A stretch of 64,000 nucleotides of DNA from the NCBI GenBank assembly GCA_003598135.1, contig QZKA01000024.1, positions 619 to 64,618 of the forward strand, in the 5' to 3' direction. Below, one piece after another: positions 48,622-64,000 of this stretch (within the stretch, counting starts at the first letter, position 1; each line of letters starts with the position of its first letter). This DNA is from Candidatus Omnitrophota bacterium. Its GTDB lineage: Bacteria; Omnitrophota; Gorgyraeia; Gygaellales; Profunditerraquicolaceae. Position numbers and translations under genes: made by a program. The notes beneath the pieces were generated by a model. The model was not told where the DNA came from, did no database searches, and worked only from the letters and a program-made list of their open reading frames with translations.

Positions 48622-48648
48622 AGGAATGTTAGGCCTTACAGCCTTACT

Positions 48649-49629
48649 TTATAACGGTTTTATTTCAGAGTCTCCGTAATGAAACACATAATTTAAAAAT
48701 ACTCCTGGGCAATATTGCTCAATTTGACAATGGAAACATTTGCTTAATTTGTGGTACGAAAAAACCCTCGTGTACAAAAATATTGCATCAGATATATCGT
48801 TCTCTATTTTACATAATAAATTCGTTTTATAATTTTTGCTGCAAGAGACTGTCTTGGAAAATTTTTCTGGTGACAGCTCTTTTAAAACACACAAAGGAAA
48901 ACCGACAAAATTAAAATTAGAATTTCTAAATTTCCTTATTATTTCTTTATAAGAAGGTATTAAGCTTTTATAGGGAAGCTTGGCCTTATATTTAAGATGC
49001 AGTATCGAAAGGGGTACTTTTGTTACCTTAGCGCATAGACTAATTATTTTATCTACATGGTTTATATTTTGCTTAAGTAACAATGTGTGCAGATAAATTT
49101 TTACCCCTGGATGTGACCTTAGATTATCCACTCCGCTTCTCAGTAAATTATAACTCTTGTGATTAGCAACTATCTGATTATGCAATTTATTTATACCGTA
49201 TACCGGAATGGATATATTCCTTAATCCGTATCTTACTAGTTTTTCTGTAAATGACGAATTCGAAAAAAATTCTCCGGAAGATATGGTTTCAATTGTCTTA
49301 AAACCATACTTATTTGCAGATTCTAACAAATCCAAAATCCCCGGATAACGCAATGGTTCATTAGCGGCAAGAAGCAAGTGAGATATGTTATTTTTTCTAT
49401 TTAAATGCATCGAATTTTTTAGGCTGGCAAGAATTGAATCGTTATAACCTTTCTTAGGATCATCTTTATGAAAACAAAAAATGCAATAATTACAACATCC
49501 GGTCTGGAAACTTATAATATTATACTTCTTATTACACCCGAGCCCCTTTAATAAATGAAGCTGTTTATCGAATGGGGCAGTAAAAATACTTAAAAGGCCT
49601 TTATTATCTTGGTTAAAATCTAAATACAT
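48649..49629 (-). CDS. radical SAM protein, ~300-aa paralogous family member (copy 1)
   Basis: CCNYCIFC is a CxxxCxxC motif. The C-terminus reads CFHCQIEQYCPG...GDSEIKPL. Closest relative is the second domain of the 694-aa fusion (LHTLLLKQN). Confidence 0.75.
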   Translation of the reverse strand: MYLDFNQDNKGLLSIFTAPFDKQLHLLKGLGCNKKYNIISFQTGCCNYCIFCFHKDDPKKGYNDSILASLKNSMHLNRKNNISHLLLAANEPLRYPGILDLLESANKYGFKTIETISSGEFFSNSSFTEKLVRYGLRNISIPVYGINKLHNQIVANHKSYNLLRSGVDNLRSHPGVKIYLHTLLLKQNINHVDKIISLCAKVTKVPLSILHLKYKAKLPYKSLIPSYKEIIRKFRNSNFNFVGFPLCVLKELSPEKFSKTVSCSKNYKTNLLCKIENDISDAIFLYTRVFSYHKLSKCFHCQIEQYCPGVFLNYVFHYGDSEIKPL

Positions 49630-49641
49630 ACATTCTAATTT

Positions 49642-50784
49642 TTAAAAATACGTTTGACTGATTTTTCCAAAAATTAACAAATTTATTATAGGAAATTTAA
49701 CTAATACCGTAATGAAGGCGCCTAAAAATATAAAGGGCGCCAACGGCAAAGTTTTATATATCTCTATTGTTTCCGATGAACGATTTCTCAATAAGTCCGT
49801 TCTAACTTCATTAATTTGATCTTGAGTTAAGCCATCAGGATAGAGTTTACCAATTTTTTTGAAACCAAATTTCAAAATTGACTCATCAGTAAGCTGTAAC
49901 CTATCCGGCAAGTTTGCAACCGGCACCTCTTCTATTATATCATTTCTTAAAGAAAGCAATTTCCGGAGAGAATAAAAAAGCACAAAAAAGTAAGTAAAAT
50001 TCTTTAAGTACACAATAAAACTAAGAATCGCACTTGATCCGAAAATAATGAAAGAATTAACTAGAAGGCAAATCATTAAAAAACTTGAAAAAACAAGAAT
50101 GGATACATGTTTCAATAGGGTTTTATTGAATGTTCTATACAACAAAAGCGGCATTAAATAGCTCAACATTGACAAAGAAGAATCCAATTTTAGTTGAGGA
50201 AAATTCATATTAAGCACAACCAACTGAATCAACATAATAAAAGTAAGGTAACTCAACACAAACCTTAAACATTTAAATATTCTCTTTTTGATATATTTAA
50301 AAATATTTTTTAAGGAAAACAAAAAAACGTCATAAAAACTGCGAGAGCCGCTCTGTAATACCTTATTTTTAATAAAAACAACTACTTTCGTGAAATAAAC
50401 AGCTAACAAGAAAATAAAAAGCAACACAAAGACATTTGTTAAGAAAACAATTATGGGATAAAGCGGCAAAATTTTCTGAAAGGGATTTACTTTTAAAAGC
50501 ACAAAAAATGAAAACATAATAAAAAGCTTAGAATCTCCGGCAGCCCAGAATCCAAAATACCAGATTAAAAAGGCGACCAAAGTTATTAACGCGGCGTTTA
50601 TAATCACAAAAGAAAGAAAATGGAAACTCAAATACTTGAACAACAGCAAATACATAAAACTTATAAATGAAAAAAATATGCCTACGATTACCAAATTGTT
50701 CTTAATTTTTGAATATCTGATGTCGCTATACGAACTAAACAAACCGATGATCAAAAATATTAAAAAATAAATAAAATTTTCCAT
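49642..50784 (-). CDS. polytopic membrane protein with a split prepilin-peptidase (A24/TadV-like) aspartyl-protease signature
   Basis: SYSDIRYSKIKNN parallels the D(L/I)RxxxIPN motif, WAAGDSKLFIM parallels GxGDVKL, and the C-terminal TLPLAPFIFLGAF parallels PFGPFLALGA. A ~200-aa multi-TM insertion sits between the motifs. Confidence 0.55.
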   Translation of the reverse strand: MENFIYFLIFLIIGLFSSYSDIRYSKIKNNLVIVGIFFSFISFMYLLLFKYLSFHFLSFVIINAALITLVAFLIWYFGFWAAGDSKLFIMFSFFVLLKVNPFQKILPLYPIIVFLTNVFVLLFIFLLAVYFTKVVVFIKNKVLQSGSRSFYDVFLFSLKNIFKYIKKRIFKCLRFVLSYLTFIMLIQLVVLNMNFPQLKLDSSLSMLSYLMPLLLYRTFNKTLLKHVSILVFSSFLMICLLVNSFIIFGSSAILSFIVYLKNFTYFFVLFYSLRKLLSLRNDIIEEVPVANLPDRLQLTDESILKFGFKKIGKLYPDGLTQDQINEVRTDLLRNRSSETIEIYKTLPLAPFIFLGAFITVLVKFPIINLLIFGKISQTYF

Positions 50785-50829
50785 TTAAGATTTAATGTTT
50801 CTTGCAGCTAATTTTGCGTTTCGGTCCGG

Positions 50830-51807
50830 TTAACGAGTAGCATGAATTCTTCTTATAATTACATCGGGATTACAAAAAATGGGATAGAGTTCTTTGCTTC
50901 CGTAAATATTGATATATTCTTTTTGGATTCCCGCACAAATTCTATTGGCCGAACAATGGGCGCAACACTCAACTTTAATTCTAAATTTCGTAGGCTTCAC
51001 CTGCCTTAATTTATCCGTCCTTTTTTTACTTATAAATGAACAAATATAAAGTTCATTCTTGACTATTTTCCTGGTTTCAGACGAAAGCTCTTCAAAGCCT
51101 TGCATATAACATAATGGAACTCGCTCAATTCTCATTGTCCTCTCATGCGTTCTCAGCAATTCAACAGTTTTCTTCAACTCCAGCTCGATATCTGTATACC
51201 TTGCTACAATCCATTGGTTATTTACTACCCTACTATTAATTTCACCATCCGCCTTCCCCGGGTCGAGATTATTATAAACAAAATGTTTTATACCAGGAAA
51301 AGCCTTAATGAAAAATTTCGCAGTGTTAGACAGATTTTTACAATTAAGCGTATTTATAGTACTATTGAGCGCCACATGGAATCCTACTCTCAATGAGTTC
51401 TCTAGCCCTTTTATTGCCTTTTTAAAATGGCCTTTCTTTTGAGATAATTTGTCTGCGATGCTGCTGCTATCGGAATGAATCGAAATATTTATATCCCTTA
51501 AACCAGCCTTAAAAAGTTTTTTAGTTAAGCGAGGGTCCTCCAGTTTGCAACCATTCGTTATGATCCTGCTTGCAATGCCGTTTTTTTGAATAAATGATAT
51601 TACTTCCGGCAAAAAGCTTACCAATGTCGGTTCTCCGCCAGTAAGAATAATTTCAGTGATGTTCTGTTTTTTTAAAGCGATAATTTTGTTTTTTATTTCA
51701 CCTAAGCCATAATTTTTTTTAAATTGGGGGTTAGAACAAAATAAACATTCATTATTACATTCCCGGGTAATCTGAAGATAAGCTGCTTTTCTAGACCTTG
51801 GGCTCAT
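50830..51807 (-). CDS. radical SAM protein, paralogous family member (copy 2)
   Basis: CNNECLFC, GGEPTL, ISIHSDS, ERVPLCYMQGFEE and the C-terminal CCAHCSANRICAG. Confidence 0.75.
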   Translation of the reverse strand: MSPRSRKAAYLQITRECNNECLFCSNPQFKKNYGLGEIKNKIIALKKQNITEIILTGGEPTLVSFLPEVISFIQKNGIASRIITNGCKLEDPRLTKKLFKAGLRDINISIHSDSSSIADKLSQKKGHFKKAIKGLENSLRVGFHVALNSTINTLNCKNLSNTAKFFIKAFPGIKHFVYNNLDPGKADGEINSRVVNNQWIVARYTDIELELKKTVELLRTHERTMRIERVPLCYMQGFEELSSETRKIVKNELYICSFISKKRTDKLRQVKPTKFRIKVECCAHCSANRICAGIQKEYINIYGSKELYPIFCNPDVIIRRIHATR

Positions 51808-51819
51808 CGGAGGCGTAGT

Positions 51820-52746
51820 TTATTTAAAAGTAAATAATAAAGGTTTCTCGTTTTTGATTTTACCCACCTCTTTATCGTTAAGAAAAACGGAAATGGTTTT
51901 TTTACCAAGAATAATGTTATTTCCGTTCTCAAGTCTATTATACGCACAAAGATAATTTCGATCTTTCTCAAAGCCGTGGTTTTGATTTATGCTTTTATAT
52001 ATGAAATTATAACGGGCGCTTCCTGCTGACATATCAACACTATTAAAAAAAAATGTTTTTCCGTTATTCAAAACAAGTACAGGAAGCTTTAAAAAAAACT
52101 CAATGTATTCCCGAATTTCAGTTTCCGAAACACAAATCGAATTTAGGACTTTTTGCGCATACTTTTTTGACTCATTACACGTATAAGAACATGGAAAATG
52201 TGAAATTAGCGCCCCAAAACGAGAGCCGGGGAATGCGTGTAAATTGTTTAAGTAAAATGAAGGCGTTCCTTTGGTATTCTCAAATGCACTAGATATTAAT
52301 TTTATTGATGGAGAATTTGTATTTTGTTTAAAGAAATTTATGCAGCATTGTGGGTATCCTAATAAATGGCCTATGGTTTCATCAACCATAGAGAAAAACT
52401 TTCTTCCTGACGAATATATACCTTTTATTCTTTTATCTTCCTGCTCTTTTAAAGCCTTAGCAAGTTTTGGTAATTTCGATGCGTAAAATATTATTTGGCC
52501 GCCATGGCTATGTAAAGGTGCCGCCCTTAACATCTTTTTTGTTCTTTTGATTTTATAATCGGAATGGGTTATATATATTCCGTTTTTCTCATAAATTTTT
52601 TTTATTCCTTTAAATTGCCCATGGTCGATTATGCTTCTCTGTGTAGGCTTAATACCATTTCTCAATGCCAAATACTCAAAATTAATATTTTCAATAACTT
52701 TGATGGCTTTCAATATATGTTGCGTATCGATTTTAACTCTACTCAT
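51820..52746 (-). CDS. hypothetical Cys-motif protein (308 aa) embedded in the rSAM cluster
   Basis: Motifs HLLGYPQCC and HFPCSYTC. No recognisable family. Confidence 0.4.
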   Translation of the reverse strand: MSRVKIDTQHILKAIKVIENINFEYLALRNGIKPTQRSIIDHGQFKGIKKIYEKNGIYITHSDYKIKRTKKMLRAAPLHSHGGQIIFYASKLPKLAKALKEQEDKRIKGIYSSGRKFFSMVDETIGHLLGYPQCCINFFKQNTNSPSIKLISSAFENTKGTPSFYLNNLHAFPGSRFGALISHFPCSYTCNESKKYAQKVLNSICVSETEIREYIEFFLKLPVLVLNNGKTFFFNSVDMSAGSARYNFIYKSINQNHGFEKDRNYLCAYNRLENGNNIILGKKTISVFLNDKEVGKIKNEKPLLFTFK

Positions 52747-53663
52747 TTGATCGGGGCGAGCTCAAGCCAGCCTATCTTTTCAGCATACGTTACATCAATC
52801 CCGCTGCATAATTTGTAGTGCCTGCAAGGTGAGCAAATCGGTGTTTTTGTAGTAGCTGAACTACGGTGGAGCATTGTCTTTTCTTTATTTTTAATATAGT
52901 ACGGTGTTTCTGGAATCCCTACATAATTCTCGTAACCACCCATTAGGCAAAATGGCATAGTTTCTATCTTAATGGGCAGCTCTTTTTTGTCGCCATACGA
53001 ACGCTTTAGTTTGTCAATCGCTTTTTTAAATTCTTTCGCTAACTCTGAGTATGAAACAAAGAGCTGATTAAAAAATTTATCTGCATTTCCTGCATACATG
53101 AGGGTGTTCAGTATTATACAATCGATTTTTTCGAAAGCCAGCAACATCTTAATAAGAAAATAAATATTTTTATAATTTAGCTTGGTAAGCGTAGAACATG
53201 TATTTACCTTTAACCGAAAAATATCTTTTAAGGCAACTATATTCTTCAATCCTTGGACGGTTTGCGCATATCCATTGGGAGTACGAGTTAAAGCTTCATG
53301 AATTTTTTTTGAGCTTCCATGGATAGAAATATTGACTTCTGTTAAGCCTGCTTTGACGAGCTCATCGACATAGCTACCGTAACTCAGCAATCTTCCGTTT
53401 GTTTGAAGGCAAATGTGTTTATATCCTTTTTGTTTCGCTAATTTAATAAAATTAGTTAAATTTTTATTAAGCGTGGGTTCGCATGTAGTAAAAAGCATTG
53501 AGTCAAGCGATTCGATCTTTTTACTTTGTTTTAAAAACCCTTCGGGTGTAAGCCAAGCAGCGTTTTTAAAAGACAGGTCCGGTTTGCGATCAGAACAAAA
53601 AACACAATTATTATTACAGGCAGCGCTTGTAAATATGGTAAGCCGGTCATTATCCATACGCAC
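52743..53663 (-). CDS. radical SAM protein, paralogous family member (copy 3)
   Basis: CNNNCVFC, ISIHGSSKKIHEALT, ETMPFCLMGGYEN and CSPCRHYKLCSG. Confidence 0.75.
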   Translation of the reverse strand: MRMDNDRLTIFTSAACNNNCVFCSDRKPDLSFKNAAWLTPEGFLKQSKKIESLDSMLFTTCEPTLNKNLTNFIKLAKQKGYKHICLQTNGRLLSYGSYVDELVKAGLTEVNISIHGSSKKIHEALTRTPNGYAQTVQGLKNIVALKDIFRLKVNTCSTLTKLNYKNIYFLIKMLLAFEKIDCIILNTLMYAGNADKFFNQLFVSYSELAKEFKKAIDKLKRSYGDKKELPIKIETMPFCLMGGYENYVGIPETPYYIKNKEKTMLHRSSATTKTPICSPCRHYKLCSGIDVTYAEKIGWLELAPIK

Positions 53664-53698
53664 CCTATGTTACTATGCTTCTACTTTCTCAGCCGTAT

Positions 53699-55783
53699 TC
53701 AAGGTAAACTGGTTAATGGCTTAAATTCGCCATCGCCATACAGCTTTAAATATAGGTCGGGAATCCCCATACAAAAATTATTTAATTTGCATTGACTGCA
53801 TTTAGTCAAAAAAGATATTTTATCTTCCATATACGTTCCTTCATTACAAAAAATTAACCTGTTCATTGAAATTTTAACGAAAGGATTGTTTTCATAAAAA
53901 TTACCTGGTTGAAGCAATTCGTCTTCAGTATAACCGGATATGGCACTTTTTAAATAAAATTTTGGCAACACACAATACGGTATCCTGATTTTAGCACGGT
54001 CCATAACCTTGTTATGCTTTAATATTTTCGCAATGTCAGAGAATTTAGGAGCAAATTCATAGTAATCGCGCTGGTCGCTATTTCTTGGTCTTACCATGCA
54101 AAAATTTATCGGAAATATTCTAAAGTAAGAAGCAATAAAATCGTATATTTTGGATATAAATAAATAGTTTTGCTTCAAAAGCAAAGAGTGCAACATTATT
54201 TCTACCTTAGGAAATCTCTGCAAATTCCTGATTGCGTTTAATAAGATTTTGAAGCTCCCACGGGAACCAGTAATTAAATCGTGAGATTCGTCATTATATC
54301 CATAAATGGACAATTGGACTTTGTCAACACCGGAAGCACAGAACTTACGGGTAAAATTAAAATTAATCAATCTTTCGCCAGAAGTGGCCAGCCTAATTTC
54401 TCTATAGCCTAATTCTTTCGCATATTTTATTACTCTTAATAAGCCCGGGTAATTTAAGGGTTCATTGCCTCCTATCCTTAGCGTATCTATTTTCAAGCTA
54501 TTGTGGATATAGGATAAATCTGATTCTATCTTATTCGGCTTTACCACAATTTCCTTATTTTTTTTGTTTTTCAGAGAACGCGAGCAAAAAATACAGCCTT
54601 TTTTACATGGAGAAGGAATTTCGCAAGAGACAAAACAGTTTTTAGAAGATTTTTCTGGTATGGGCACTAAGACTTTATATCCGTTGTTTTTAATGCGGCC
54701 GCACTGCATTCCATCGCAGGTAGCGGTAAATTTACATAAAGCGCATCTAGGGCTTTTTACAAAATAACGGTTTTTTATAAAAAAATCTAGAAAGTCAAAT
54801 ATATCTATATCATGGCCTTTATTAACTATCGGCTGACTTTCAAGCATCCTTTCAGAAATCTCGTTGTTTTTTATGCAATACGGCATATTTTTTGGCTTGA
54901 GGATACCGTCACGTTTAAATAACGATATGTCATCGCAAAAACTTTTCAAAACACAATAATCGCACCGAGTGCCTTTGCATCTTAAAGTAATATTATTTTT
55001 AAGATATTTCTCAAATTCTGCTTTTCTCCCCATTACTTCATAAAATAATTTTGCAGGGCTCTGTATTAAGTCTTCATAACCTTCGAAATATTGAGCGGGA
55101 AAACGGTTTGTGAAAATATTTAATTTTCTGTTTTTTGATAATTCAAATGCCTTTTTCAAATAGCTTAATTCTTTTTCAATGTCATAAAAAAGGATACTTC
55201 GATTATTCCACGCCCTACCAAAAGGCACTATTTGTAATAAATCAAATTCGCTTACGCCTATTCCTATAAAAAACTTTATAATACTTTCAAGCCTCCTTAC
55301 ATTTAATTTATTAACAACGATATCTTGGCTTACAATTAGCTTAGGAGACTTTAGCGCATTAATTAATCCCGCTAACGACTGAAAATAAGAGCCAGCTACT
55401 TGCGTTATACGATCATGGGGTTTTTCCTCGCATTCATGAATAGAAAAAGTTATCTCTTTTAAGCCGGAGGATATTGTATCCTGTAAAAAACTCTTATATG
55501 CAAACATCCTCCCGTTAGTTATAACCTGTATATGGCTATATCCTATCTTATTTGCGAATCTAACAATCTCTTGAAATCTTGGATGCAAAGATGGCTCTCC
55601 CCCGCTCAAAACTGCCCTTCTTATATTTTCTTTCCGCCCCTTCATTAATTCAGATTTCACTAGAGAGAACTCGATACAACTTCCGTCTTGTGATTCATAA
55701 TCCAAACAAAAAAGGCATCTATTATTGCACGCCTTAGTTAATCGGACCCAATATCTTTTTTCCTCCGGAGAACTTTTTGACAT
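53699..55783 (-). CDS. tandem double radical SAM protein (two complete rSAM domains, 694 aa)
   Basis: Domain 1 has CNNRCLFC, GGEPSL and SIHECEEKPHD. The linker carries CDYCVLKSFC and CALCKFTATCDGMQCG. Domain 2 has CKKGCIFC, GGNEPL and the C-terminal CSQCKLNNFCMG. Confidence 0.75.
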   Translation of the reverse strand: MSKSSPEEKRYWVRLTKACNNRCLFCLDYESQDGSCIEFSLVKSELMKGRKENIRRAVLSGGEPSLHPRFQEIVRFANKIGYSHIQVITNGRMFAYKSFLQDTISSGLKEITFSIHECEEKPHDRITQVAGSYFQSLAGLINALKSPKLIVSQDIVVNKLNVRRLESIIKFFIGIGVSEFDLLQIVPFGRAWNNRSILFYDIEKELSYLKKAFELSKNRKLNIFTNRFPAQYFEGYEDLIQSPAKLFYEVMGRKAEFEKYLKNNITLRCKGTRCDYCVLKSFCDDISLFKRDGILKPKNMPYCIKNNEISERMLESQPIVNKGHDIDIFDFLDFFIKNRYFVKSPRCALCKFTATCDGMQCGRIKNNGYKVLVPIPEKSSKNCFVSCEIPSPCKKGCIFCSRSLKNKKNKEIVVKPNKIESDLSYIHNSLKIDTLRIGGNEPLNYPGLLRVIKYAKELGYREIRLATSGERLINFNFTRKFCASGVDKVQLSIYGYNDESHDLITGSRGSFKILLNAIRNLQRFPKVEIMLHSLLLKQNYLFISKIYDFIASYFRIFPINFCMVRPRNSDQRDYYEFAPKFSDIAKILKHNKVMDRAKIRIPYCVLPKFYLKSAISGYTEDELLQPGNFYENNPFVKISMNRLIFCNEGTYMEDKISFLTKCSQCKLNNFCMGIPDLYLKLYGDGEFKPLTSLP

Positions 55784-55793
55784 AATGGCGTTA

Positions 55794-56720
55794 TTAATTC
55801 TCCTCCTTCTTAAACTCTTTCTGGCCGTATTTTCTTAGGTATTCTTGCCAAATGCCCCAGCAATTACTACTCACTGGACAATTCTGACATTCTTTAACCT
55901 TCACATAGGTAATGATTTTATTTTTTGATACCGCATAATACTCCCTGTACTTTGTTACTGATGAATGGGGTAAAAAATTTTCTTCATTTCTGGAATCACC
56001 GTATCGAATCGAGTTATTTTTAAAGTATTTATGAAAATAGCAGCCAACCGGTGGGTTAAGCAAGCACCATGAGAAACCAAGGCCTTGTCCTTTATCTAAG
56101 GCACGTACTATATAAGGCGCTGCTTCTGATATACGCGGCGTGAGGCTTTTAAATATAGATTCATTTTTCGTGATTATATACATAAATTCCGCCCTCTTTA
56201 TCTGATATGCAAGTAAGATTTTACCAATAGACGGCAAATATTTGTAATTTTGCTTGGTAATCGTAGTATTGGTTCCTATCTGATTGAACCCTAATTTTTT
56301 TAAATTTTCTATCCCTTTTACTAATTGCTGAAAACTCCCTGCTGTATCGGTAAGATAATCGTGCACCTTGGGGCTATGGCCGTGCAAAGAAAAATCTATT
56401 TCTGATACACCGGATTTTATCAATTGCCGGGCAAAATCGTCGTACGCCAACATTCTGCCGTTTGTACTTATTCTCACTTTTTTAAAACCGATTTTTTTTC
56501 CGTATGCAATCAACTCGCAAATGTCCTTCCTTATAGTCGGTTCTCCTCCGATTAGATTAAGCCAGCTCTTCCCGATCTTTTTTGCTGCTAAAATTTCACT
56601 TTTAACTTCTTCTGTCGTTTTCTCGGACAGATGACGGTTCTCCCGGTCATAACAAAATAGGCAACCGTTATTACATTTAAATCCAAATACAATAGCGGCA
56701 TGATCGCTTATGTTGTTCAT
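55794..56720 (-). CDS. radical SAM protein, paralogous family member (copy 4)
   Basis: CNNGCLFC, IGGEPTI, FSLHGHSPKVHDYLT and CQNCPVSSNCWG. Confidence 0.75.
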   Translation of the reverse strand: MNNISDHAAIVFGFKCNNGCLFCYDRENRHLSEKTTEEVKSEILAAKKIGKSWLNLIGGEPTIRKDICELIAYGKKIGFKKVRISTNGRMLAYDDFARQLIKSGVSEIDFSLHGHSPKVHDYLTDTAGSFQQLVKGIENLKKLGFNQIGTNTTITKQNYKYLPSIGKILLAYQIKRAEFMYIITKNESIFKSLTPRISEAAPYIVRALDKGQGLGFSWCLLNPPVGCYFHKYFKNNSIRYGDSRNEENFLPHSSVTKYREYYAVSKNKIITYVKVKECQNCPVSSNCWGIWQEYLRKYGQKEFKKEEN

Positions 56721-57649
56721 ATAGCAAACTCCTTGTCTTTAAATTCAAGGTAATATCTTTTAAATATCCCGCCGCAGTTACTACTCATAGAACAGCTTTC
56801 GCATACATGGATCTTAATCCTATTACGAGTCGGATAACAACTCAAAGTTTCCTTTAAAAATATATTTTTAGAACTTTTCCGCTGCTCAACTGTTATTCTA
56901 GGGGACCAGTGAAAATCATTAGTGTAAAGTTCATAACCCTTTAGCACGCAAAGAGGAAGCCCAAAAAATCTAATAATTAGAGCTTTTTTATTCGCATATT
57001 CAACTAATCGAGGGACTGCCGTTTTTATTTCTTTTAAAGGAACAACTAATTTTTTAAAATTAGCCAATCCATTTCCTTCCGGGGCGAAGTTAGAAAAAAG
57101 TATTTGTTTGACTTTTTTAAAATTGCTGACCAAATCGATTACCTTCTCAAGTGAGCTAACATTATATTTAGTAATAACTGTGTTAATGAACAAAAAAATG
57201 TCCCCCTTTGACCTTTCAATATTTTCTAATGCGTTCATACATCTGCTGAAGCTTTCTCTGTTGGCGGTGTGAAGATTATGAAGCGTTCCGCTATGACCGT
57301 GCAGAGAAAAACAAATTTCATCAACATAAAAAAGAGTTTTATCGCAAAACCTTTTTAAGGAAAATAAGCCTCCGTTAGAACTACAATACACTGTATACAT
57401 TAACTGCTTTGCGGATTGGATTATTTCTACAAAACTCGGGTGAAAAGTCGGCTCTCCCCCTGTTAATGTAATGTGGTTTAAGCCTTTTTCGGCAAAATAT
57501 TTTAATTTATTTTGTATTATATTGAAGTCAACAAAATGGTTATTACGTTTATTTAATTGGCCTGCCTCGGAACAAAAAATGCAGTTATTGACACATTTAT
57601 ACGATATGTGAAATTCTAATCTCTTTGCCTTAGATCTATTTCCCGTCAT
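56717..57649 (-). CDS. radical SAM protein, paralogous family member (copy 5)
   Basis: CVNNCIFC, TGGEPTF, FSLHGHSGTLHNL, GLPLCVLKGYEL and CESCSMSSNCGG. Confidence 0.75.
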   Translation of the reverse strand: MTGNRSKAKRLEFHISYKCVNNCIFCSEAGQLNKRNNHFVDFNIIQNKLKYFAEKGLNHITLTGGEPTFHPSFVEIIQSAKQLMYTVYCSSNGGLFSLKRFCDKTLFYVDEICFSLHGHSGTLHNLHTANRESFSRCMNALENIERSKGDIFLFINTVITKYNVSSLEKVIDLVSNFKKVKQILFSNFAPEGNGLANFKKLVVPLKEIKTAVPRLVEYANKKALIIRFFGLPLCVLKGYELYTNDFHWSPRITVEQRKSSKNIFLKETLSCYPTRNRIKIHVCESCSMSSNCGGIFKRYYLEFKDKEFAI

Positions 57650-57651
57650 CT

Positions 57652-59070
57652 TTATCCATAAAGTAAGTAAGATAGTTGGAAGTCAATATTCCGGTATTCA
57701 TTCTTATTCTTATCAACTAATCCTGAATATCTAGCCAAAAAACGACCATCAAGAAAGCAATTTGAATAAATGTATCTTTCACATCTTGTTTTCGCAGATA
57801 ACGTAATAAAATTTCTGTCTTCTCCCACGGGGCACATTTTTTTTATTAACTTGAGTTCCCTTGGATATAGCTTTTCGGGTTCTTCATTGAATATTTTTTG
57901 AAACAAATTTTTATCAATTCTCCCTTCTTCCTGAATAGAGTTTATTATATTGAAACGCATCTCTAAATCCTTTGATAATTGGAACGCGAAGAGTTTAGGG
58001 AAAATATTTCGTTTGAGATTTCTTTCATAATCCGGATAGTGTAGGTCTTTTACGTAGTACATCTTTTTAAACGCATGTGAGATTGCCCCCCACCCTAATC
58101 CCAAAACCGAACTATTAAATTTATACATGTCAAAAAATTGTAAATTTTCTTTATTTGTACTGTAATCCTCCAACGCATAAGGATACGCACTGCTAATCAT
58201 CTGGTACGCTAAATCGAGCATCTTTTTACAGCGGATTACATCACTAAAGTTTAATGTAAGGCCGTTTTTAGTAAACCTTGTAAAAACATCTGGACAAAAA
58301 GAGTTAACGTGGATAGTATCTGGTTTCAGTTTTAAAATATTTTTTAACGAGATTTGGAACGATTCAATTGATTGATAAGGAACCCCTGCCATCAAATCAA
58401 CATTGATATGGCGTATCTTCAATTTTCTACAATTTTGATATAGCTGAAAAACTAATTTTGCATTTTGCGGCCTTTGGAGTTTCTTGAGGACATTTTTATC
58501 CAGCGATTGAACTCCGATAGTTACTTTGTTTACCCCATAATCCTTAAGTATTTTTACTTTCTCATAAGAGCACGTGTATGGGCTAAGTTCAACCATAAAT
58601 TGCTCTTTATTCTCCACATTATAATTTTCTGAAATCATGACCATGAGTCTTTTGAGATTGGCAGATGATAATATTGAAGGCGTACCGCCACCTATATAAA
58701 CGGTTTTTGCTTCCAATTTCTTTGGAAAATCCAATAATTTTATTTCTTTTTCCAGTGCATTAAGAAAGCGGGAATGTGACTGATCATTAGTCTGGGGGAA
58801 TGATAGGGTGTTACAATAAAAACACTTGCTGACACAAAATGGAATGTGGACATATATACCGAATCTATCGTGGCTACCCTTCTCTTTAAGGATGGATGTC
58901 GCAACAGATCGCCAAGATTTTTTTACTTCCTCTAGGCGTATTGATCTTCTTTGGAGTCTCAGTACCGAATACGGCGTTCCTAAGCCATAAAAAATCAAAT
59001 CCCTGGTTATGCACTTAAACAGCTCAAGCTTCTTATTAACTTCATTACTTAAAAGGGACAAGTTCGGCAT
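57652..59070 (-). CDS. HemN/HemW-like radical SAM protein (coproporphyrinogen-III-oxidase family)
   Basis: YVHIPFCVSKCFYC, GGGTPS and VTIGVQSLD. Confidence 0.75.
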   Translation of the reverse strand: MPNLSLLSNEVNKKLELFKCITRDLIFYGLGTPYSVLRLQRRSIRLEEVKKSWRSVATSILKEKGSHDRFGIYVHIPFCVSKCFYCNTLSFPQTNDQSHSRFLNALEKEIKLLDFPKKLEAKTVYIGGGTPSILSSANLKRLMVMISENYNVENKEQFMVELSPYTCSYEKVKILKDYGVNKVTIGVQSLDKNVLKKLQRPQNAKLVFQLYQNCRKLKIRHINVDLMAGVPYQSIESFQISLKNILKLKPDTIHVNSFCPDVFTRFTKNGLTLNFSDVIRCKKMLDLAYQMISSAYPYALEDYSTNKENLQFFDMYKFNSSVLGLGWGAISHAFKKMYYVKDLHYPDYERNLKRNIFPKLFAFQLSKDLEMRFNIINSIQEEGRIDKNLFQKIFNEEPEKLYPRELKLIKKMCPVGEDRNFITLSAKTRCERYIYSNCFLDGRFLARYSGLVDKNKNEYRNIDFQLSYLLYG

Positions 59071-59971
59071 CCGAATATTTTAAGAAATATTTTTCGTAAA
59101 CGCCTCCGCATATGCTATTCTTTGAGCATTTTTTACACTTGCGGGTTTTTATTCTTCCGATATCGATTTTAAAATTGTTTTCGATATATTTCCCCGGCTC
59201 ATTCCATAATCGTATTTTTCCATTATGATCTTTCTGATTATCAATTTTGAAGGGTTCCCATAAATCATAGGAATACTGATATCTATCTCCTAAAATACAC
59301 ATAGGAATACCGGAAAACCTGATTTTAATATTTTTGGACTCGCAAAAGTTTATTGCTTTTATTACGTGTGGGGAAAGAACAGAAAATTTAGGAAAAATCT
59401 CGTAAAATTTTCGGCTCCCCTCTCCTGTAGGTACAATAGACATACATTGATATTCGTTTATTCCAAAATTATGAATCAACTCAGCTATGTTGGTTAAAAA
59501 TTTATAATTAAGACTGGTTATCGCAGTGGTTGCTTGAAGTCTGCCCTTATAATATTTCTTCAGATTTTTCATTCCTTGAAAGACAGATTTAAAAGCTGCC
59601 GGGTTACGGGTATTAATTGAATGAATTTTATTATTATGCCCGTGTATAGAAATCATAATTTCGTCGAGATAAGGCAATGTCTTGATGCAAAACTCATAAG
59701 AGCTGAACATAATTGCATTTGAAATAATAAATGTATTATAATGTAATGCCTTTGACAATTTTAATATTTCGGGAAAATGAGAATGTAATGTTGGCTCCCC
59801 TCCTACAAAGTGTACAAGATTTGCCCCTTTAGACCTTTCAGCTACTAATATATTCTTAATTTTCTCAAATGAGAGCTCAGAGCCATCAAGGTTATTTCTT
59901 TCGCTGCAAAAAATACATCTATTACAGCATTTTTTTACAATAAAAAGGTCAATTCGTCTGGTGTGTACCAT
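59045..59971 (-). CDS. radical SAM protein, paralogous family member (copy 6)
   Basis: CNRCIFC, VGGEPTL, ISIHGHNNKIHS, GIPMCILGDRYQ and CKKCSKNSICGG. Confidence 0.75.
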   Translation of the reverse strand: MVHTRRIDLFIVKKCCNRCIFCSERNNLDGSELSFEKIKNILVAERSKGANLVHFVGGEPTLHSHFPEILKLSKALHYNTFIISNAIMFSSYEFCIKTLPYLDEIMISIHGHNNKIHSINTRNPAAFKSVFQGMKNLKKYYKGRLQATTAITSLNYKFLTNIAELIHNFGINEYQCMSIVPTGEGSRKFYEIFPKFSVLSPHVIKAINFCESKNIKIRFSGIPMCILGDRYQYSYDLWEPFKIDNQKDHNGKIRLWNEPGKYIENNFKIDIGRIKTRKCKKCSKNSICGGVYEKYFLKYSDAELVPFK

Positions 59972-60905
59972 ATTCGTAAGGAAGAACTGAACAATACATA
60001 CTAATCTCTTTGGCCCTGGTAGAATTTAGAAAGGTCAATCCCAGGGCAGTAGGATAAATACAACTGTGAAATGTCGCATAAAGATTATTTAATCCGTAGA
60101 TAAATTTATTTATACTCAAAAGGGGAACTTTCAACTTCTTGATATCTGACCATCTTTCTTTCGGATTAAAATTGCACTGGAATTCTCTGGTTTCATAAAT
60201 TAAATAATTCTTCAGAAAAGCTATCGTTCCTGGTTTTTTTAATTTGACCGCAGCAAGGTAAAATACATTTTTCTTTGGTGAATTTTTGAAAAATACGCTA
60301 AATTTAGATTTGAAGTCGTTATGCAAAAAGCTAAATTTGTTTAATTCTTGTAGCGCATGATACCTAAAATAAAGCTTAATTGACATTTGATTACTATTCG
60401 GGCAAAGCACTAATGCAAGCGCACAGATTTCATATCGTAAATATAAACCGACCATATTCGGATCGTAGCCCGATATCAAACACAACTTATACAATATATC
60501 GTTTTTCAAAAAAGGGCCGCATTCAACTTCAATTTTTAAAGTGGGGGCCCTGTCTGATTCAGCCCACTCAAACCCCAAAGTGACTGGAAAAGCTTTAATT
60601 ACATAGATTGCTTTTTCCGCTTGTTGTCGCAATTCCCCATCGTAACACAATCGTATTATTGAACGTATTTTATTGAGAAATTCGACTCTCTCCCCTGAAT
60701 CATTAATACTAAATCTCAAAAGATGTTTAGGCCTTCTATTAATTTTAAAAGAAAAATCAAACTTAAAAAAATCAAGACTACGCATTTGGTAATCATCAAA
60801 GAGGATTTTGATAATACATGGGAAATTTTTCTTTTCATAAATATTATTTTCTCTTGCAATTTGTTCTATAATATTTCTGTAACAAGTAAGGATGTTAGTG
60901 CTCAT
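59949..60905 (-). CDS. hypothetical protein (318 aa) homologous to the C-terminal domain of the 624-aa rSAM fusion
   Basis: KFDFSFKINRRPKHLLRFSINDSGERVEF aligns with KFDFSISASDSNARSLRFSYNDFGEKKEF at residues ~330-360 of ORF 61951..63825. Confidence 0.45.
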   Translation of the reverse strand: MSTNILTCYRNIIEQIARENNIYEKKNFPCIIKILFDDYQMRSLDFFKFDFSFKINRRPKHLLRFSINDSGERVEFLNKIRSIIRLCYDGELRQQAEKAIYVIKAFPVTLGFEWAESDRAPTLKIEVECGPFLKNDILYKLCLISGYDPNMVGLYLRYEICALALVLCPNSNQMSIKLYFRYHALQELNKFSFLHNDFKSKFSVFFKNSPKKNVFYLAAVKLKKPGTIAFLKNYLIYETREFQCNFNPKERWSDIKKLKVPLLSINKFIYGLNNLYATFHSCIYPTALGLTFLNSTRAKEISMYCSVLPYEYGTHQTN

Positions 60906-60913
60906 TTAAAAGA

Positions 60914-61957
60914 TTAAAAACTGCGATTGGCTAATGCGTTATTTAAATATGCAACAAAATTTGACATTAATTGGCCCGCTAAGATAGTATTATTCAGATA
61001 TTTGGTAACATTATTTTCACGGAAAATTATTTCCATTGCTTCTTCATTAGTAAGCCGCTTTTTCTCAAACGCATCCATACTCTCTTTTATTTCGTTGATA
61101 TTCCCCAGGATGAACTTCCTTTTCCTTTCATAGTTTTGAATTAAATAACTGATACACGCAGAGTAGATGTTTCCGTCAAAATCCACGGATATCTCTGTAT
61201 TCATCCTAAATGGCGGGAACCATTCTGTCAGGTTTTGCAACCGAATATCATTTTTTAGTCTTAGTTTTAAATACAGACTCCTTAATTTAATCAGATTCCT
61301 TGCCAAAACTATTCTATCGTTGTTTGACCATTTTACTCCACAGGCAATCATTATGAATATATTTCTAAAGCCTAAATTTACTAAATGGCTGAAATTGTCA
61401 ACAATTCTGCCCACTGTCATGGGAGAAACTACCATACTGACCTGGCAATCTGTATTATATTTAAAAATTATCGGAAGGTTGCGGACAATAAGAGAATACG
61501 AGTCGGGTAAACCATTCTTTTGCGGCCTATTTAACCTCTGCGCTCCAGGGCCTCCATCCAGACTTAGCTCAAGAAGTACATTGTTTTCTTTGAAGAACCT
61601 TACTTTTTCTTCATTCAACAATACTCCGTTTGTTGTAAGAATAGGGGTTAATTTTCTTTTTTTGGCATTTGCTACTTTGTTTGCATACATTATTCCTTTC
61701 TTTAAAATCTTGAAAGGCAGCATTAGTGGTTCGCCGCCGAAAAAATGCAATTGTAAAACGTCTGCTGAGGAAGTCATCAAAAAATCGACAGATTTAAGCA
61801 AAACGTGCTCGGACATATATCTTTTTGAACTTTGCGATACAAAGCAGTATTTGCACTTCAAACAACAGTCATGGGTTAATAACAGTAACAGTCTAGTTGT
61901 TCTAAACTCAGTCCGCTCCCCTATTAAATTGTTTCCTTTTTTTTCTGAAATCACCAT
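60914..61957 (-). CDS. anSME/SPASM-like radical SAM core lacking the C-terminal Cys-rich domain
   Basis: LLLLLTHDCCLKCKYCF, FFGGEPLM and ELSLDG. There are no C-terminal cysteine clusters. Confidence 0.65.
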   Translation of the reverse strand: MVISEKKGNNLIGERTEFRTTRLLLLLTHDCCLKCKYCFVSQSSKRYMSEHVLLKSVDFLMTSSADVLQLHFFGGEPLMLPFKILKKGIMYANKVANAKKRKLTPILTTNGVLLNEEKVRFFKENNVLLELSLDGGPGAQRLNRPQKNGLPDSYSLIVRNLPIIFKYNTDCQVSMVVSPMTVGRIVDNFSHLVNLGFRNIFIMIACGVKWSNNDRIVLARNLIKLRSLYLKLRLKNDIRLQNLTEWFPPFRMNTEISVDFDGNIYSACISYLIQNYERKRKFILGNINEIKESMDAFEKKRLTNEEAMEIIFRENNVTKYLNNTILAGQLMSNFVAYLNNALANRSF

Positions 61958-63825
61958 TTAACCGTAAAATAGACGTCAGCCTTTTGGGAACCCCTTGCAT
62001 GATCAATGGCCGCGATCACTGGAAATACTTTTCTTCCTTTTAATGCGCATAAACTGCAGATCTCTGAAAAAACTTCATTCGCCGCTTTGTCATTTGAATT
62101 AATCAATATGTTCCTAATTTCAGGCGTAACCTGATTAGAATCTTTGATTTGGCTAATTTCATAGATTTTATATAATTTGATTGAATTAATACAGCCGTTC
62201 TCCTGGAACCTTTTAGTGATGTAATAAAATACCTTCAACTTAGATTCGCCCTTATTTAAAATTGATTTTAGAAGCTTTCTGGCCGCATTCAACCCATTCT
62301 TCCTTAAAAATTTTAAAAATGTTTTTTCGTTTACTTTTTTATGAATACAATATACTTTAAGGTTTATGTTTTTTTTGGGCAAAAAATCTACGCAAATCGC
62401 ACCAATAATAGCGCGAGAGTTAATTTGTAATTTCTTATAATCGATTTTCAATACCTTACAAATACGTTGCAGAAAAATCCTGATTTCTGATTGAGTAAAG
62501 GAATGAACCAATTCTTCAAAATATACTTTTATTTTTGGGTAATTTTCCTTGGAAAACCAAACCAAACCAATGGTCGTTTGTTGCTTATTGCCGAACGGGA
62601 TCATTACGCATAGCAGTTCATTTATTTGATTAATGGAGTAAGCATCGCCGAATAATTGAAAGATTTTCAATAATTTATTTTTGAACTCTTTTTTCTCCCC
62701 AAAATCATTATAGCTAAACCGTAAACTCCTTGCGTTACTATCGCTGGCTGAAATTGAAAAATCAAATTTTTGGTTATCTTTAAGCCATGATTCTTTAAAA
62801 TCCGTGAAAAGAATATTTGTTATTCTGTCAACTTTCTCTTTTAAAAACTTCAGGCCAAAGTGCTTAATTAACAAATTAGAAATATCTGTAAAAATAGAAA
62901 CGGTAGAAACACTGCCTTTGTTATTTAATACAAACCCTTTTCTAACGGGTTTAAATTCATCCCATCCGAATTTCTGCGGATACTCCCTCCAGGGTCCTTC
63001 ACACACTGCGTAGTACCGACATTTAGGACAATTTGTTGATTTACTTTTCCCTTCCTTTTTACGAACAAGCCCAAAATTTTCTATAACTCCATTTACATCG
63101 TATATCTTTGTTTCGGGCAAAATCCTCTCAGCAATATAATCCTCGTAGCCCCTCATGAAACAATAAGGAATTGCCTCGGTCATCACTCTCTTTCCAGCAG
63201 AAATGCCTTTTTCTAGTGCCATCTTGACAAACGGTTCAACCAGTGACATCCGGGGCACTATAGAATCAAAGTTATCTTTTGCGCTTCCTAAAGGGTGAGG
63301 GAATGCGAATTGGAACTGGTCAACCCCGAGCCTAATCAATAAATCTGCTATCGAGGGCAAATACGCAAAATTAGACTTGGTTATGACGGTATTGGTAATA
63401 ACCGTCTGCCCTAGTTTTTTTAAGTTTATTATCCCATCAACAGTTTGTTTAAAGCTACCCGGGGAGCTTGTGAGGTAATCGTGCATATGGGGGGTACTTC
63501 CGTGCAAAGCAGGAGAAAATTCATTGGCACCGCATTTAATCGCCTTTTTGCAAAATTCAGAATAAGAAAAAAAACGGCCATTAGATTGGATTTGAATTGT
63601 ATTGAAGTTCAATGCTTTGGCAAAAGCAACAAATTGAAAAAAGTCTTTATGTAAGGTAGGCTCTCCGCCGGTAAAGACTATATCGCGACAGCTTGTTCTC
63701 GCCTTCTCCATTTCATTTTTTATAATTCCGGTATCCCTGCTTCCGTATGCCTTGCGCTTGTCGCCCTGAACGCAAAATTTACAGAAGTTATTACAATTGA
63801 ATCCAATCTTTATATCGGCTTTCAT
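61951..63825 (-). CDS. radical SAM (family copy 7) fused to a ~300-aa C-terminal domain of unknown function
   Basis: CNNFCKFC, TGGEPTL, PALHGSTPHMHDYLT, EAIPYCFMRGYED and CPKCRYYAVCEG, followed by a domain paralogous to ORF 59949..60905. Confidence 0.75.
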   Translation of the reverse strand: MKADIKIGFNCNNFCKFCVQGDKRKAYGSRDTGIIKNEMEKARTSCRDIVFTGGEPTLHKDFFQFVAFAKALNFNTIQIQSNGRFFSYSEFCKKAIKCGANEFSPALHGSTPHMHDYLTSSPGSFKQTVDGIINLKKLGQTVITNTVITKSNFAYLPSIADLLIRLGVDQFQFAFPHPLGSAKDNFDSIVPRMSLVEPFVKMALEKGISAGKRVMTEAIPYCFMRGYEDYIAERILPETKIYDVNGVIENFGLVRKKEGKSKSTNCPKCRYYAVCEGPWREYPQKFGWDEFKPVRKGFVLNNKGSVSTVSIFTDISNLLIKHFGLKFLKEKVDRITNILFTDFKESWLKDNQKFDFSISASDSNARSLRFSYNDFGEKKEFKNKLLKIFQLFGDAYSINQINELLCVMIPFGNKQQTTIGLVWFSKENYPKIKVYFEELVHSFTQSEIRIFLQRICKVLKIDYKKLQINSRAIIGAICVDFLPKKNINLKVYCIHKKVNEKTFLKFLRKNGLNAARKLLKSILNKGESKLKVFYYITKRFQENGCINSIKLYKIYEISQIKDSNQVTPEIRNILINSNDKAANEVFSEICSLCALKGRKVFPVIAAIDHARGSQKADVYFTVKW

Positions 63826-64000
63826 CAGTTTAAAGAAGAAATGAACTCGGTAAGCTTATAATCTATATTAATCGTGGATTTTAAGACTCTGAAAGGAGTA
63901 CATTTTTCGACAATTTTACCGAGATCTGCCTGCATAATCAAGCGTTTTATTTTTTTTAAACTTCTAATTGAATTAACGTTTCCGAGTTTAAATTTTTTCG
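63826..64000 (-). CDS. 3' end of an upstream minus-strand gene in the same operon (partial, unknown function)
   Basis: The open frame ends ...KLTEFISSLN, and its stop overlaps the start of the following gene (atga). The gene begins beyond the window. Confidence 0.4.

What the first reader, a model, noticed from the sequence alone, without database searches (positions are those of the whole stretch)
59949..63825. Novel ~300-aa domain present both as a standalone protein and fused to an rSAM
ORF 59949..60905 and the C-terminal half of ORF 61951..63825 are clearly homologous, for example KFDFSFKINRRPKHLLRFSINDSGERVEF against KFDFSISASDSNARSLRFSYNDFGEKKEF. I recognise no known domain. An unknown domain fused to an rSAM and duplicated as a separate gene fits a substrate-recognition or scaffold module, or a second catalytic activity.
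Basis: seen in the sequence. Interest (0 to 1): 0.7.

Follow-up and report, generated by a model that had tools for sequence, protein, structure and literature searches.

The report
Orphan prenyltransferase-fold domain paired with radical SAM enzymes
The "unknown" 300-residue domain has the barrel fold of aromatic prenyltransferases (lipid-attaching enzymes), and it occurs, free or fused to radical SAM enzymes, only in giant clusters that modify a small His-Xaa-Ser repeat peptide, so it probably adds a lipid-like group to that peptide.

The parts
59949..60905 (-). Standalone ABBA/PT-barrel (aromatic prenyltransferase fold) protein, 318 aa ('paralogue B')
61951..62907 (-). C-terminal ABBA/PT-barrel domain of the fusion protein (residues ~307-624 plus stop; 'paralogue A')
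   Evidence: BLASTP E 2e-15 to the standalone copy. In the AF2 fusion model this half has pLDDT ~85-95 and 5x alpha-beta-beta-alpha. Foldseek TM 0.63-0.70 to IptA, 5-DMATS, PriB and TleC.
62908..62937 (-). Flexible linker (residues ~297-306) between the rSAM and PT domains
   Evidence: pLDDT <50 for residues 297-305. Whole-chain pTM is only 0.57 although mean pLDDT is 90.4.
62938..63825 (-). HxsC-like radical SAM domain of the fusion (residues 1-296; CNNFCKFC cluster motif)
   Evidence: PF04055 E 1.6e-19. HxsC4 NF038332 E 1e-48 and HxsC TIGR03977 E 4.5e-31, both below the curated cut-offs. Foldseek hits SkfB, BlsE, GDGT-MAS, SuiB and viperin.
60914..61957 (-). PapB/HxsB-like radical SAM protein (347 aa) encoded between the two PT copies; partner of the standalone PT
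   Evidence: PF04055 and rSAM_PapB E 1e-42, below cut-off. P0058 (649 aa) joins a 47%-identical orthologue of this protein to a PT domain that scores higher against the standalone copy (84 bits) than against the fused copy (55.5 bits).
59045..59971 (-). HxsC-like radical SAM protein (308 aa); its start overlaps the standalone PT gene by 23 nt
47278..59070 (-). Rest of the same-strand, tightly packed cluster: HemN-like rSAM (57652-59070), three HxsC-like rSAMs, a double rSAM (53699-55783), a DUF483 protein, an rSAM, a Peptidase_A24-like membrane protein (49642-50784), an rSAM, and a B12-binding-type rSAM (47278-48621)
   Evidence: Gaps between genes run from -26 to +45 nt. GC is 0.32-0.35 against 0.43-0.51 in the first 46 kb of the window. 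Gene order matches L001.
63826..64000 (-). 3' end of the upstream rSAM gene (309 aa in L001), cut by the window edge. The HxsD, HxsB and HxsA-type precursor genes would lie beyond the window.
   Evidence: The frame-2 translation matches the C-terminus of L001 6151-7080. Upstream genes are seen in L001.

Best explanation
Both copies belong to a previously unmodelled sequence family within the ABBA (PT-barrel) aromatic prenyltransferase superfamily. The family is an accessory of an expanded His-Xaa-Ser (Hxs) peptide-maturation system. That system has HxsD, HxsB, about a dozen HxsC-like and other radical SAM enzymes, and a small membrane-anchored HxsA3/A4-type precursor ending in (Ser-His-Gly)n-Ser-His-Gly-Gln-Trp. 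Shown: the fold, the near-invariance of Lys/Arg/Tyr on the barrel strands, the exclusive multi-rSAM context, and repeated independent fusions to rSAM partners. Inferred mechanism: the barrel binds a prenyl diphosphate (DMAPP or GPP) through K48, R64, K124, K177 and K232 and the Tyr residues Y179, Y234 and Y304. It ionises the donor and alkylates an electron-rich side chain of the precursor. The conserved C-terminal Trp or a repeat His is the most likely target, with Ser-O possible. The tethered or adjacent rSAM enzyme then acts on the same peptide region or on the prenyl group. The fusion is two beads on a flexible linker, so it secures co-localisation and stoichiometry rather than a fixed composite active site. 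The two paralogues each pair with their own upstream rSAM.
Confidence: 0.55

Rival explanations
1. The PT barrel is a non-catalytic module, a degenerate prenyltransferase like PatF. It binds the HxsA-type peptide, or a modified intermediate, and presents it to the tethered rSAM. This would be a role like an RRE domain or HxsD.
Against: Five basic residues and three or four tyrosines on the barrel strands are nearly invariant across about 70 divergent members. That pattern fits an anionic-ligand or catalytic site better than a peptide clamp. HxsD is still present in these clusters, so the recognition role is already filled.
Confidence: 0.17
2. The barrel is catalytic but does something other than peptide prenylation. 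It could alkylate or cyclise a small-molecule or lipid substrate made by the rSAM enzymes, or use a different anionic donor.
For: The closest structural neighbours act on free Trp or small indoles (CymD, 6-DMATS, IptA, MpnD). The cluster contains HemN-like and B12-type rSAMs, which are often C1-transfer enzymes. The fusion's rSAM half resembles BlsE and the lipid-modifying GDGT-MAS as much as peptide maturases.
Against: A conserved ribosomal precursor (HxsA3/A4 type) with HxsB and HxsD sits at the head of PT-positive clusters in five of the six distinct loci. No small-molecule scaffold genes (NRPS, PKS, terpene synthase) were seen in the loci read.
Confidence: 0.18
3. The similarity is chance, or the ORFs are not real genes.
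For: None beyond the low pairwise identity of 29%.
Against: BLASTP E 2e-15. HMM E-values are 1e-109 and 7e-127. There are 82 family representatives, conserved synteny in an independent MAG, and confident AF2 models.
Confidence: 0.01

Closest known systems
Bacterial DMATS-type indole prenyltransferases (CymD, 6-DMATS/IptA, 5-DMATS, PriB, MpnD, TleC)
   Different: Only 10-14% identity and no significant profile match for the window proteins. Those enzymes act on free Trp or small indoles in alkaloid or NRP pathways and are not fused to rSAM enzymes. Here the context is a ribosomal His-Xaa-Ser peptide system.
Cyanobactin-type RiPP prenyltransferases (PagF, PirF, LimF, DciF, PatF)
   Different: No sequence similarity. 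Cyanobactin clusters have PatA/PatG proteases and no rSAM enzymes. No fusion to rSAM was found in my searches.
Canonical His-Xaa-Ser (HXS) antiphage system (HxsA-D; Li et al., Nat Commun 2026, PMC13128918)
   Same: HxsD and HxsB orthologues pass NCBIfam cut-offs in the syntenic loci. The precursors carry His-Xaa-Ser repeats. HxsC-like rSAMs are present.
   Different: The canonical system has four genes, is 99.7% Pseudomonadota, and its HxsA carries a peptidoglycan-binding domain with a +8 Da modification. Here there are at least 13 rSAM domains, an 85-124-aa precursor with an N-terminal hydrophobic helix and an (SHG)n-SHGQW tail (HxsA3/A4 models), an A24-like peptidase, DUF483 and one or two PT-fold proteins, in Omnitrophota, Schekmanbacteria and Elusimicrobia. 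The window's HxsC-like proteins score below the HxsC and HxsC4 cut-offs.
Orf2/NphB-CloQ family aromatic prenyltransferases (Pfam PTase_Orf2)
   Different: hhalign probability 0.14 against NphB. They use small aromatic substrates in Streptomyces meroterpenoid pathways.

Membership tests
ABBA / PT-barrel aromatic prenyltransferase superfamily | Ten-stranded antiparallel beta-barrel built from five alpha-beta-beta-alpha repeats and ringed by helices | tested here: met
ABBA / PT-barrel aromatic prenyltransferase superfamily | Sequence membership in a curated PT family (Pfam Trp_DMAT PF11991, PTase_Orf2, cyanobactin PT models) | tested here: not met
   The window proteins have no Pfam or NCBIfam hit at E<=0.1. 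PDB sequence and profile searches are empty. hhalign against NphB gives probability 0.14. Only two distant relatives touch PF11991, below threshold.
ABBA / PT-barrel aromatic prenyltransferase superfamily | Basic residues and a tyrosine belt inside the barrel that bind the prenyl diphosphate and shield the carbocation | tested here: inconclusive
   K48, R64, K124, K177, K232, Y179, Y234 and Y304 lie on predicted strands and are conserved in 65-73 of 73 members. I had no coordinates to confirm that they face the lumen at the diphosphate position.
ABBA / PT-barrel aromatic prenyltransferase superfamily | Absence of the (N/D)DxxD motif of trans-prenyltransferases and terpene synthases | tested here: met
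   Neither window copy has the motif. Seven of 67 family members have a chance match.
ABBA / PT-barrel aromatic prenyltransferase superfamily | Prenyl-transfer activity | not testable with these tools
   Needs biochemistry.
His-Xaa-Ser (Hxs) system | HxsD and HxsB present next to HxsC-type rSAMs | tested here: met
   Not visible in the window, which ends at the upstream rSAM. In syntenic L001, HxsD TIGR03976 scores 59.9 (cut-off 50) and HxsB TIGR03978 scores 481 (cut-off 370). L002 scores 63.1 and 535.
His-Xaa-Ser (Hxs) system | Precursor with His-Xaa-Ser repeats (HxsA family) | tested here: met
   The L002 precursor scores 58.1 on HxsA4 NF038313 (cut-off 55). The L001 precursor scores 51.3 on HxsA3, below the cut-off of 65. 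Repeats are seen directly in L001, L002-4, L005, L009, L010 and L012.
His-Xaa-Ser (Hxs) system | HxsC equivalog (TIGR03977) or HxsC4 (NF038332) above the curated cut-off | tested here: not met
   The best window scores are 166 bits against a cut-off of 500 (HxsC4) and 148 bits against a cut-off of 268 (HxsC). These are related paralogues, not equivalogs.
His-Xaa-Ser (Hxs) system | Canonical four-gene HxsD-B-C-A architecture with a peptidoglycan-binding HxsA (antiphage HXS) | tested here: not met
   There are at least 13 rSAM domains plus extra genes. The precursors are 85-124 aa with only a hydrophobic N-terminal helix, unlike the description in PMC13128918.

The most novel reading that the evidence does not exclude
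PT-rSAM pairs, fused or adjacent, are bifunctional units that first prenylate a His or the C-terminal Trp of the (SHG)n-SHGQW precursor and then use radical chemistry on the prenylated residue, for example to cyclise or cross-link the isoprenoid to the peptide. The product would be a new class of lipidated, heavily rSAM-tailored, membrane- or envelope-anchored peptide in Omnitrophota, Schekmanbacteria and Elusimicrobia, possibly an elaborated relative of the HXS antiphage effector.
Probability: 0.2. Interest if true: 0.85.

Novelty: new variant of a known kind. Interest (0 to 1): 0.62.

Why it matters
The finding turns an "unknown domain" into a testable enzyme hypothesis. The domain is a sequence-orphan branch of the aromatic prenyltransferase superfamily, absent from Pfam and NCBIfam. 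It is recurrently fused to radical SAM enzymes, an architecture I found no report of. It sits in an expanded version of the His-Xaa-Ser system, whose four-gene form was only recently shown to be an antiphage defence with unresolved chemistry. If active, the family would link isoprenoid transfer and radical SAM tailoring on one ribosomal peptide. It would also add new peptide-prenylating biocatalysts and give a handle on what these 13-rSAM clusters of uncultivated phyla make.

Tried and rejected
- **Sequence-family searches.** Pfam, NCBIfam and PADLOC scans of the standalone protein gave no hit. phmmer and a profile search against PDB sequences gave nothing meaningful. A tail member, P0087, searched against PDB also gave nothing.
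- **Profile comparison with NphB.** hhalign of a 50-sequence family profile against NphB gave probability 0.14. The NphB sequence was recalled from memory and verified as identical to 1zb6_A. No residue-level mapping to a known active site was therefore possible.
- **KFDFS motif.** I considered equating the family's 'KFDFS' motif with NphB's 'LDFSIS' (the Mg-binding Asp62, from memory). I dropped this because there is no alignment support and the motifs appear to lie on different strands.
- **afdb50 fold search.** The library was unavailable.
- **Scan of GTDB representative genomes.** It found only three loci. The pattern-based scan reaches close relatives only, so this understates the distribution.
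- **Fixed rSAM-PT interface.** AF2 of the fusion gave pTM 0.57 with a disordered linker, so there is no support for a rigid composite active site.
- **Literature searches.** Searches for rSAM-ABBA fusions or for this multi-rSAM system in candidate phyla found nothing specific. The held library is not exhaustive.
- **Repeat number versus rSAM number.** The number of rSAMs does not track the number of SHG repeats: about 5 to about 17 repeats occur with a similar gene count.
Full report
**1. Observation**

ORF 59949-60905(-) encodes 318 aa and ORF 61951-63825(-) encodes 624 aa. BLASTP aligns residues 31-243 of the short protein with 335-561 of the long one at 29% identity, E 2e-15. The N-terminal half of the long protein is a radical SAM domain (PF04055, E 1.6e-19).

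**2. The domain**

- **Sequence searches are empty.** The standalone protein has no Pfam hit, no NCBIfam hit and no PDB sequence hit.
- **The family is tiny.** The 5.8-billion-protein search gave 3 close homologues of the standalone copy and 7 of the fused copy's domain. A profile of 12 sequences (A1) found only 82 representatives at E<=1e-3 among 1.84 billion clusters.
- **The fold is clear.** AlphaFold2 on A1 gave a confident model (pLDDT 83.9, pTM 0.85) with secondary structure of five consecutive helix-helix-strand-strand units.
- **Foldseek.** The 50 best PDB matches were all ABBA aromatic prenyltransferases: IptA, AmbP1/3, PirF, PagF, FamD1, CloQ, NphB, EpzP, LimF, DciF, FgaPT2 and others.
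- **The fused copy gives the same answer.** The 624-aa model has pLDDT 90.4. Its C-terminal half matches IptA, 5-DMATS, PriB and TleC at TM 0.63-0.70. Its N-terminal half matches SkfB, BlsE, GDGT-MAS, SuiB and viperin.

So the fold is a well-known one, the PT barrel. The sequence family is unmodelled.

**3. Is it likely to be an active enzyme?**

Across 73 near-full-length members, a set of charged and aromatic residues on the predicted strands is almost invariant (numbering of the standalone protein):

| Residue | Members conserved (of 73) |
|---|---|
| K48 | 66 |
| D50 | 67 |
| S52 | 69 |
| R64 | 69 |
| K124 | 70 |
| Y126 | 60 (Glu in the standalone clade) |
| E128 | 65 |
| K177 | 71, plus 2 Arg |
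| Y179 | 70 |
| K232 | 73 |
| Y234 | 65 |
| Y304 | 65 |

Repeated K-x-Y on alternate strands is, from established knowledge of DMATS/NphB/CloQ structures, the way ABBA enzymes bind the diphosphate and line the carbocation chamber. I could not view coordinates, so this mapping is inferred. hhalign of a 50-sequence profile against verified NphB found nothing. Two distant family members weakly touch Pfam Trp_DMAT; one is P0087 at E 1e-3. There is no (N/D)DxxD motif.

**4. Context**

- **The window cluster.** The two genes sit in a tightly packed minus-strand cluster, with gaps of -26 to +45 nt, running from 47278 to beyond the window end. The cluster has low GC (0.32-0.35, against 0.43-0.51 in the first 46 kb of the window).
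- **Its genes.** It encodes several HxsC-like rSAMs, a double rSAM, a HemN-like rSAM, a PapB/HxsB-like rSAM, a B12-type rSAM, a DUF483 protein and a Peptidase_A24-like membrane protein. The last 175 nt of the window encode the C-terminus of another rSAM.
- **The syntenic Omnitrophota MAG (L001).** It has the same gene order, with proteins 71-90% identical. Upstream it shows HxsD, a ~69-aa ORF, HxsB, a secreted 187-aa protein and an 85-aa precursor ending HSSHGSHSSHGSHGQW.
- **Other PT-positive loci.** The same arrangement recurs in Schekmanbacteria (L002-4), an unassigned metagenome contig (L005), Elusimicrobia (L009) and L012. Every precursor ends in (SHG)n-SHGQW and has a conserved basic N-terminus plus a hydrophobic helix. 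L006 is also a multi-rSAM cluster, but no HxsD, HxsB or precursor was found in the fetched part of its contig.
- **NCBIfam confirmation.** HxsD and HxsB score above their cut-offs, and the L002 precursor passes HxsA4. The window's HxsC-like proteins stay below the HxsC and HxsC4 cut-offs.
- **The canonical system.** The four-gene HXS system was recently shown to be an antiphage system. Its HxsA receives a +8 Da modification, and it is 99.7% proteobacterial (PMC13128918). The present system is a much-expanded variant.
- **The PT is an accessory.** A Patescibacteria locus (L010) has the same kind of precursor (ending SHGSW), HxsD, HxsB and an orthologue of the fusion's rSAM inside a 1089-aa triple rSAM. 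It has no PT.

**5. Fusion evidence**

- **Split form of the window's fusion.** The rSAM half of the window's fusion is a separate 297-aa gene in Schekmanbacteria, 60% identical. Its stop overlaps the start of the PT gene.
- **A different fusion partner.** In L005 the same rSAM is instead the C-terminal half of a double rSAM.
- **The standalone copy is fused elsewhere.** P0058 (649 aa) joins a 47%-identical orthologue of the window's 347-aa rSAM (60914-61957, the gene just upstream of the standalone PT) to a PT domain. That PT domain scores higher against the standalone copy (84 bits) than against the fused copy (55.5 bits).
- **Other architectures.** Other members are fused to different HxsC-like paralogues at about 30% identity (P0031, P0042, P0043, P0064). 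P0056 has the reverse order, and P0046 is rSAM-PT-rSAM.
- **Frequency and copy number.** About 22 full-length homologues of the window's fusion exist. Loci carry one or two PT paralogues.
- **Geometry.** AF2 places a disordered linker at residues 297-305 and gives pTM 0.57. The fusion therefore looks like two tethered domains, not a rigid composite.

Each PT paralogue thus forms a functional pair with a particular rSAM.

**6. Interpretation**

- **Best explanation (confidence 0.55).** This is a new family of ABBA prenyltransferases that alkylates the HxsA3/A4-type precursor. The invariant C-terminal Trp or a repeat His is the most plausible target, by analogy with indole PTs and with LimF- or KgpF-type peptide PTs. 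The PT would work in concert with its partner rSAM.
- **Rivals.** A catalytically dead peptide-binding barrel (0.17); catalysis on a non-peptide substrate or with another donor (0.18); chance or artefact (0.01).
- **What is not shown.** Enzymatic activity, the donor and the target residue.

**7. Novelty**

The fold is known and peptide-prenylating ABBA enzymes are known. Three things appear new:

- the sequence family, which has no curated model;
- its exclusive association with, and repeated fusion to, radical SAM enzymes;
- its place in an expanded Hxs system of uncultivated phyla.

Literature searches found no report of such a fusion. I therefore rate it a new variant of a known kind, with moderate-to-high interest.

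Noticed in passing
window 47278-64000: The whole rSAM cluster has GC 0.32-0.35, against 0.43-0.51 for the first 46 kb of the window. A similar but smaller dip is seen in L001, L002 and L010, but not in the high-GC Elusimicrobia locus L009. This may mean horizontal acquisition or a compositional bias of the cluster.
   Followed up: partly
window 49642-50784 (-): A 380-aa polytopic membrane protein weakly matches Peptidase_A24, the prepilin peptidase family (E 4e-5, just under the cut-off). It is conserved in the Elusimicrobia cluster (L009 15491-16636). The precursors have a basic N-terminus followed by a hydrophobic helix. In Patescibacteria (L010) the Hxs-like cluster lies directly next to type IV pilus genes. 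The precursor may be processed like a prepilin.
   Followed up: partly
window 51820-52746 (-): A DUF483 (PF04467) protein of 308 aa is embedded among the rSAM genes. It is conserved in L001 and weakly in L010, and one homologue (P0144) fuses an rSAM to DUF483. Its function is unknown.
   Followed up: no
window 62938-63825 (-) and proteins P0109-P0206: The rSAM half of the fusion has unusually close homologues, 50-63% identical over ~300 aa. They occur in Patescibacteria/Parcubacteria, Woesearchaeota, Nanoarchaeota, Spirochaetes, Elusimicrobia and Myxococcales. Most are fused to a second or third rSAM, or to methyltransferase, TPR, B12-binding or glycosyltransferase domains. The Myxococcales copy (L011) is not in an obvious Hxs cluster. 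This rSAM seems to be a widely shared, highly conserved module whose chemistry is unknown.
   Followed up: partly
window 53699-55783 (-); L010 10001-13270: Gene fusions between rSAM paralogues are common in these clusters: a 694-aa double rSAM in the window and a 1089-aa triple rSAM (PapB-like, fusion-type and HemN-like) in Patescibacteria. This suggests a multi-enzyme assembly.
   Followed up: partly
window 57652-59070 (-) and 47278-48621 (-): The cluster includes a HemN/HemW-like class C rSAM (472 aa) and a B12-binding-type rSAM (447 aa). Both classes are typically C1-transfer enzymes. The canonical HXS modification was reported as +8 Da, '+C/-4H type'.
   Followed up: no
window 59949-60905 (-), residue 126: The standalone-paralogue clade has Glu where about 60 of 73 family members have Tyr, in the K124-x-Y126 strand motif (LKIEVE versus IKVYFEE). 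This could reflect a different donor, acceptor or mechanism for paralogue B.
   Followed up: no
L001 3697-3906; L010 7114-7314; L012 1618-1833: A conserved 66-71-aa ORF with no family hit always sits between HxsD and HxsB in the expanded systems. A secreted or membrane protein of 187-292 aa with no family hit sits between HxsB and the precursor.
   Followed up: no
L010 17404-19911: The Patescibacteria version of the cluster, which lacks a PT, additionally encodes aminotransferases and a pyruvoyl-dependent arginine decarboxylase (PvlArgDC) among the rSAM genes.
   Followed up: no
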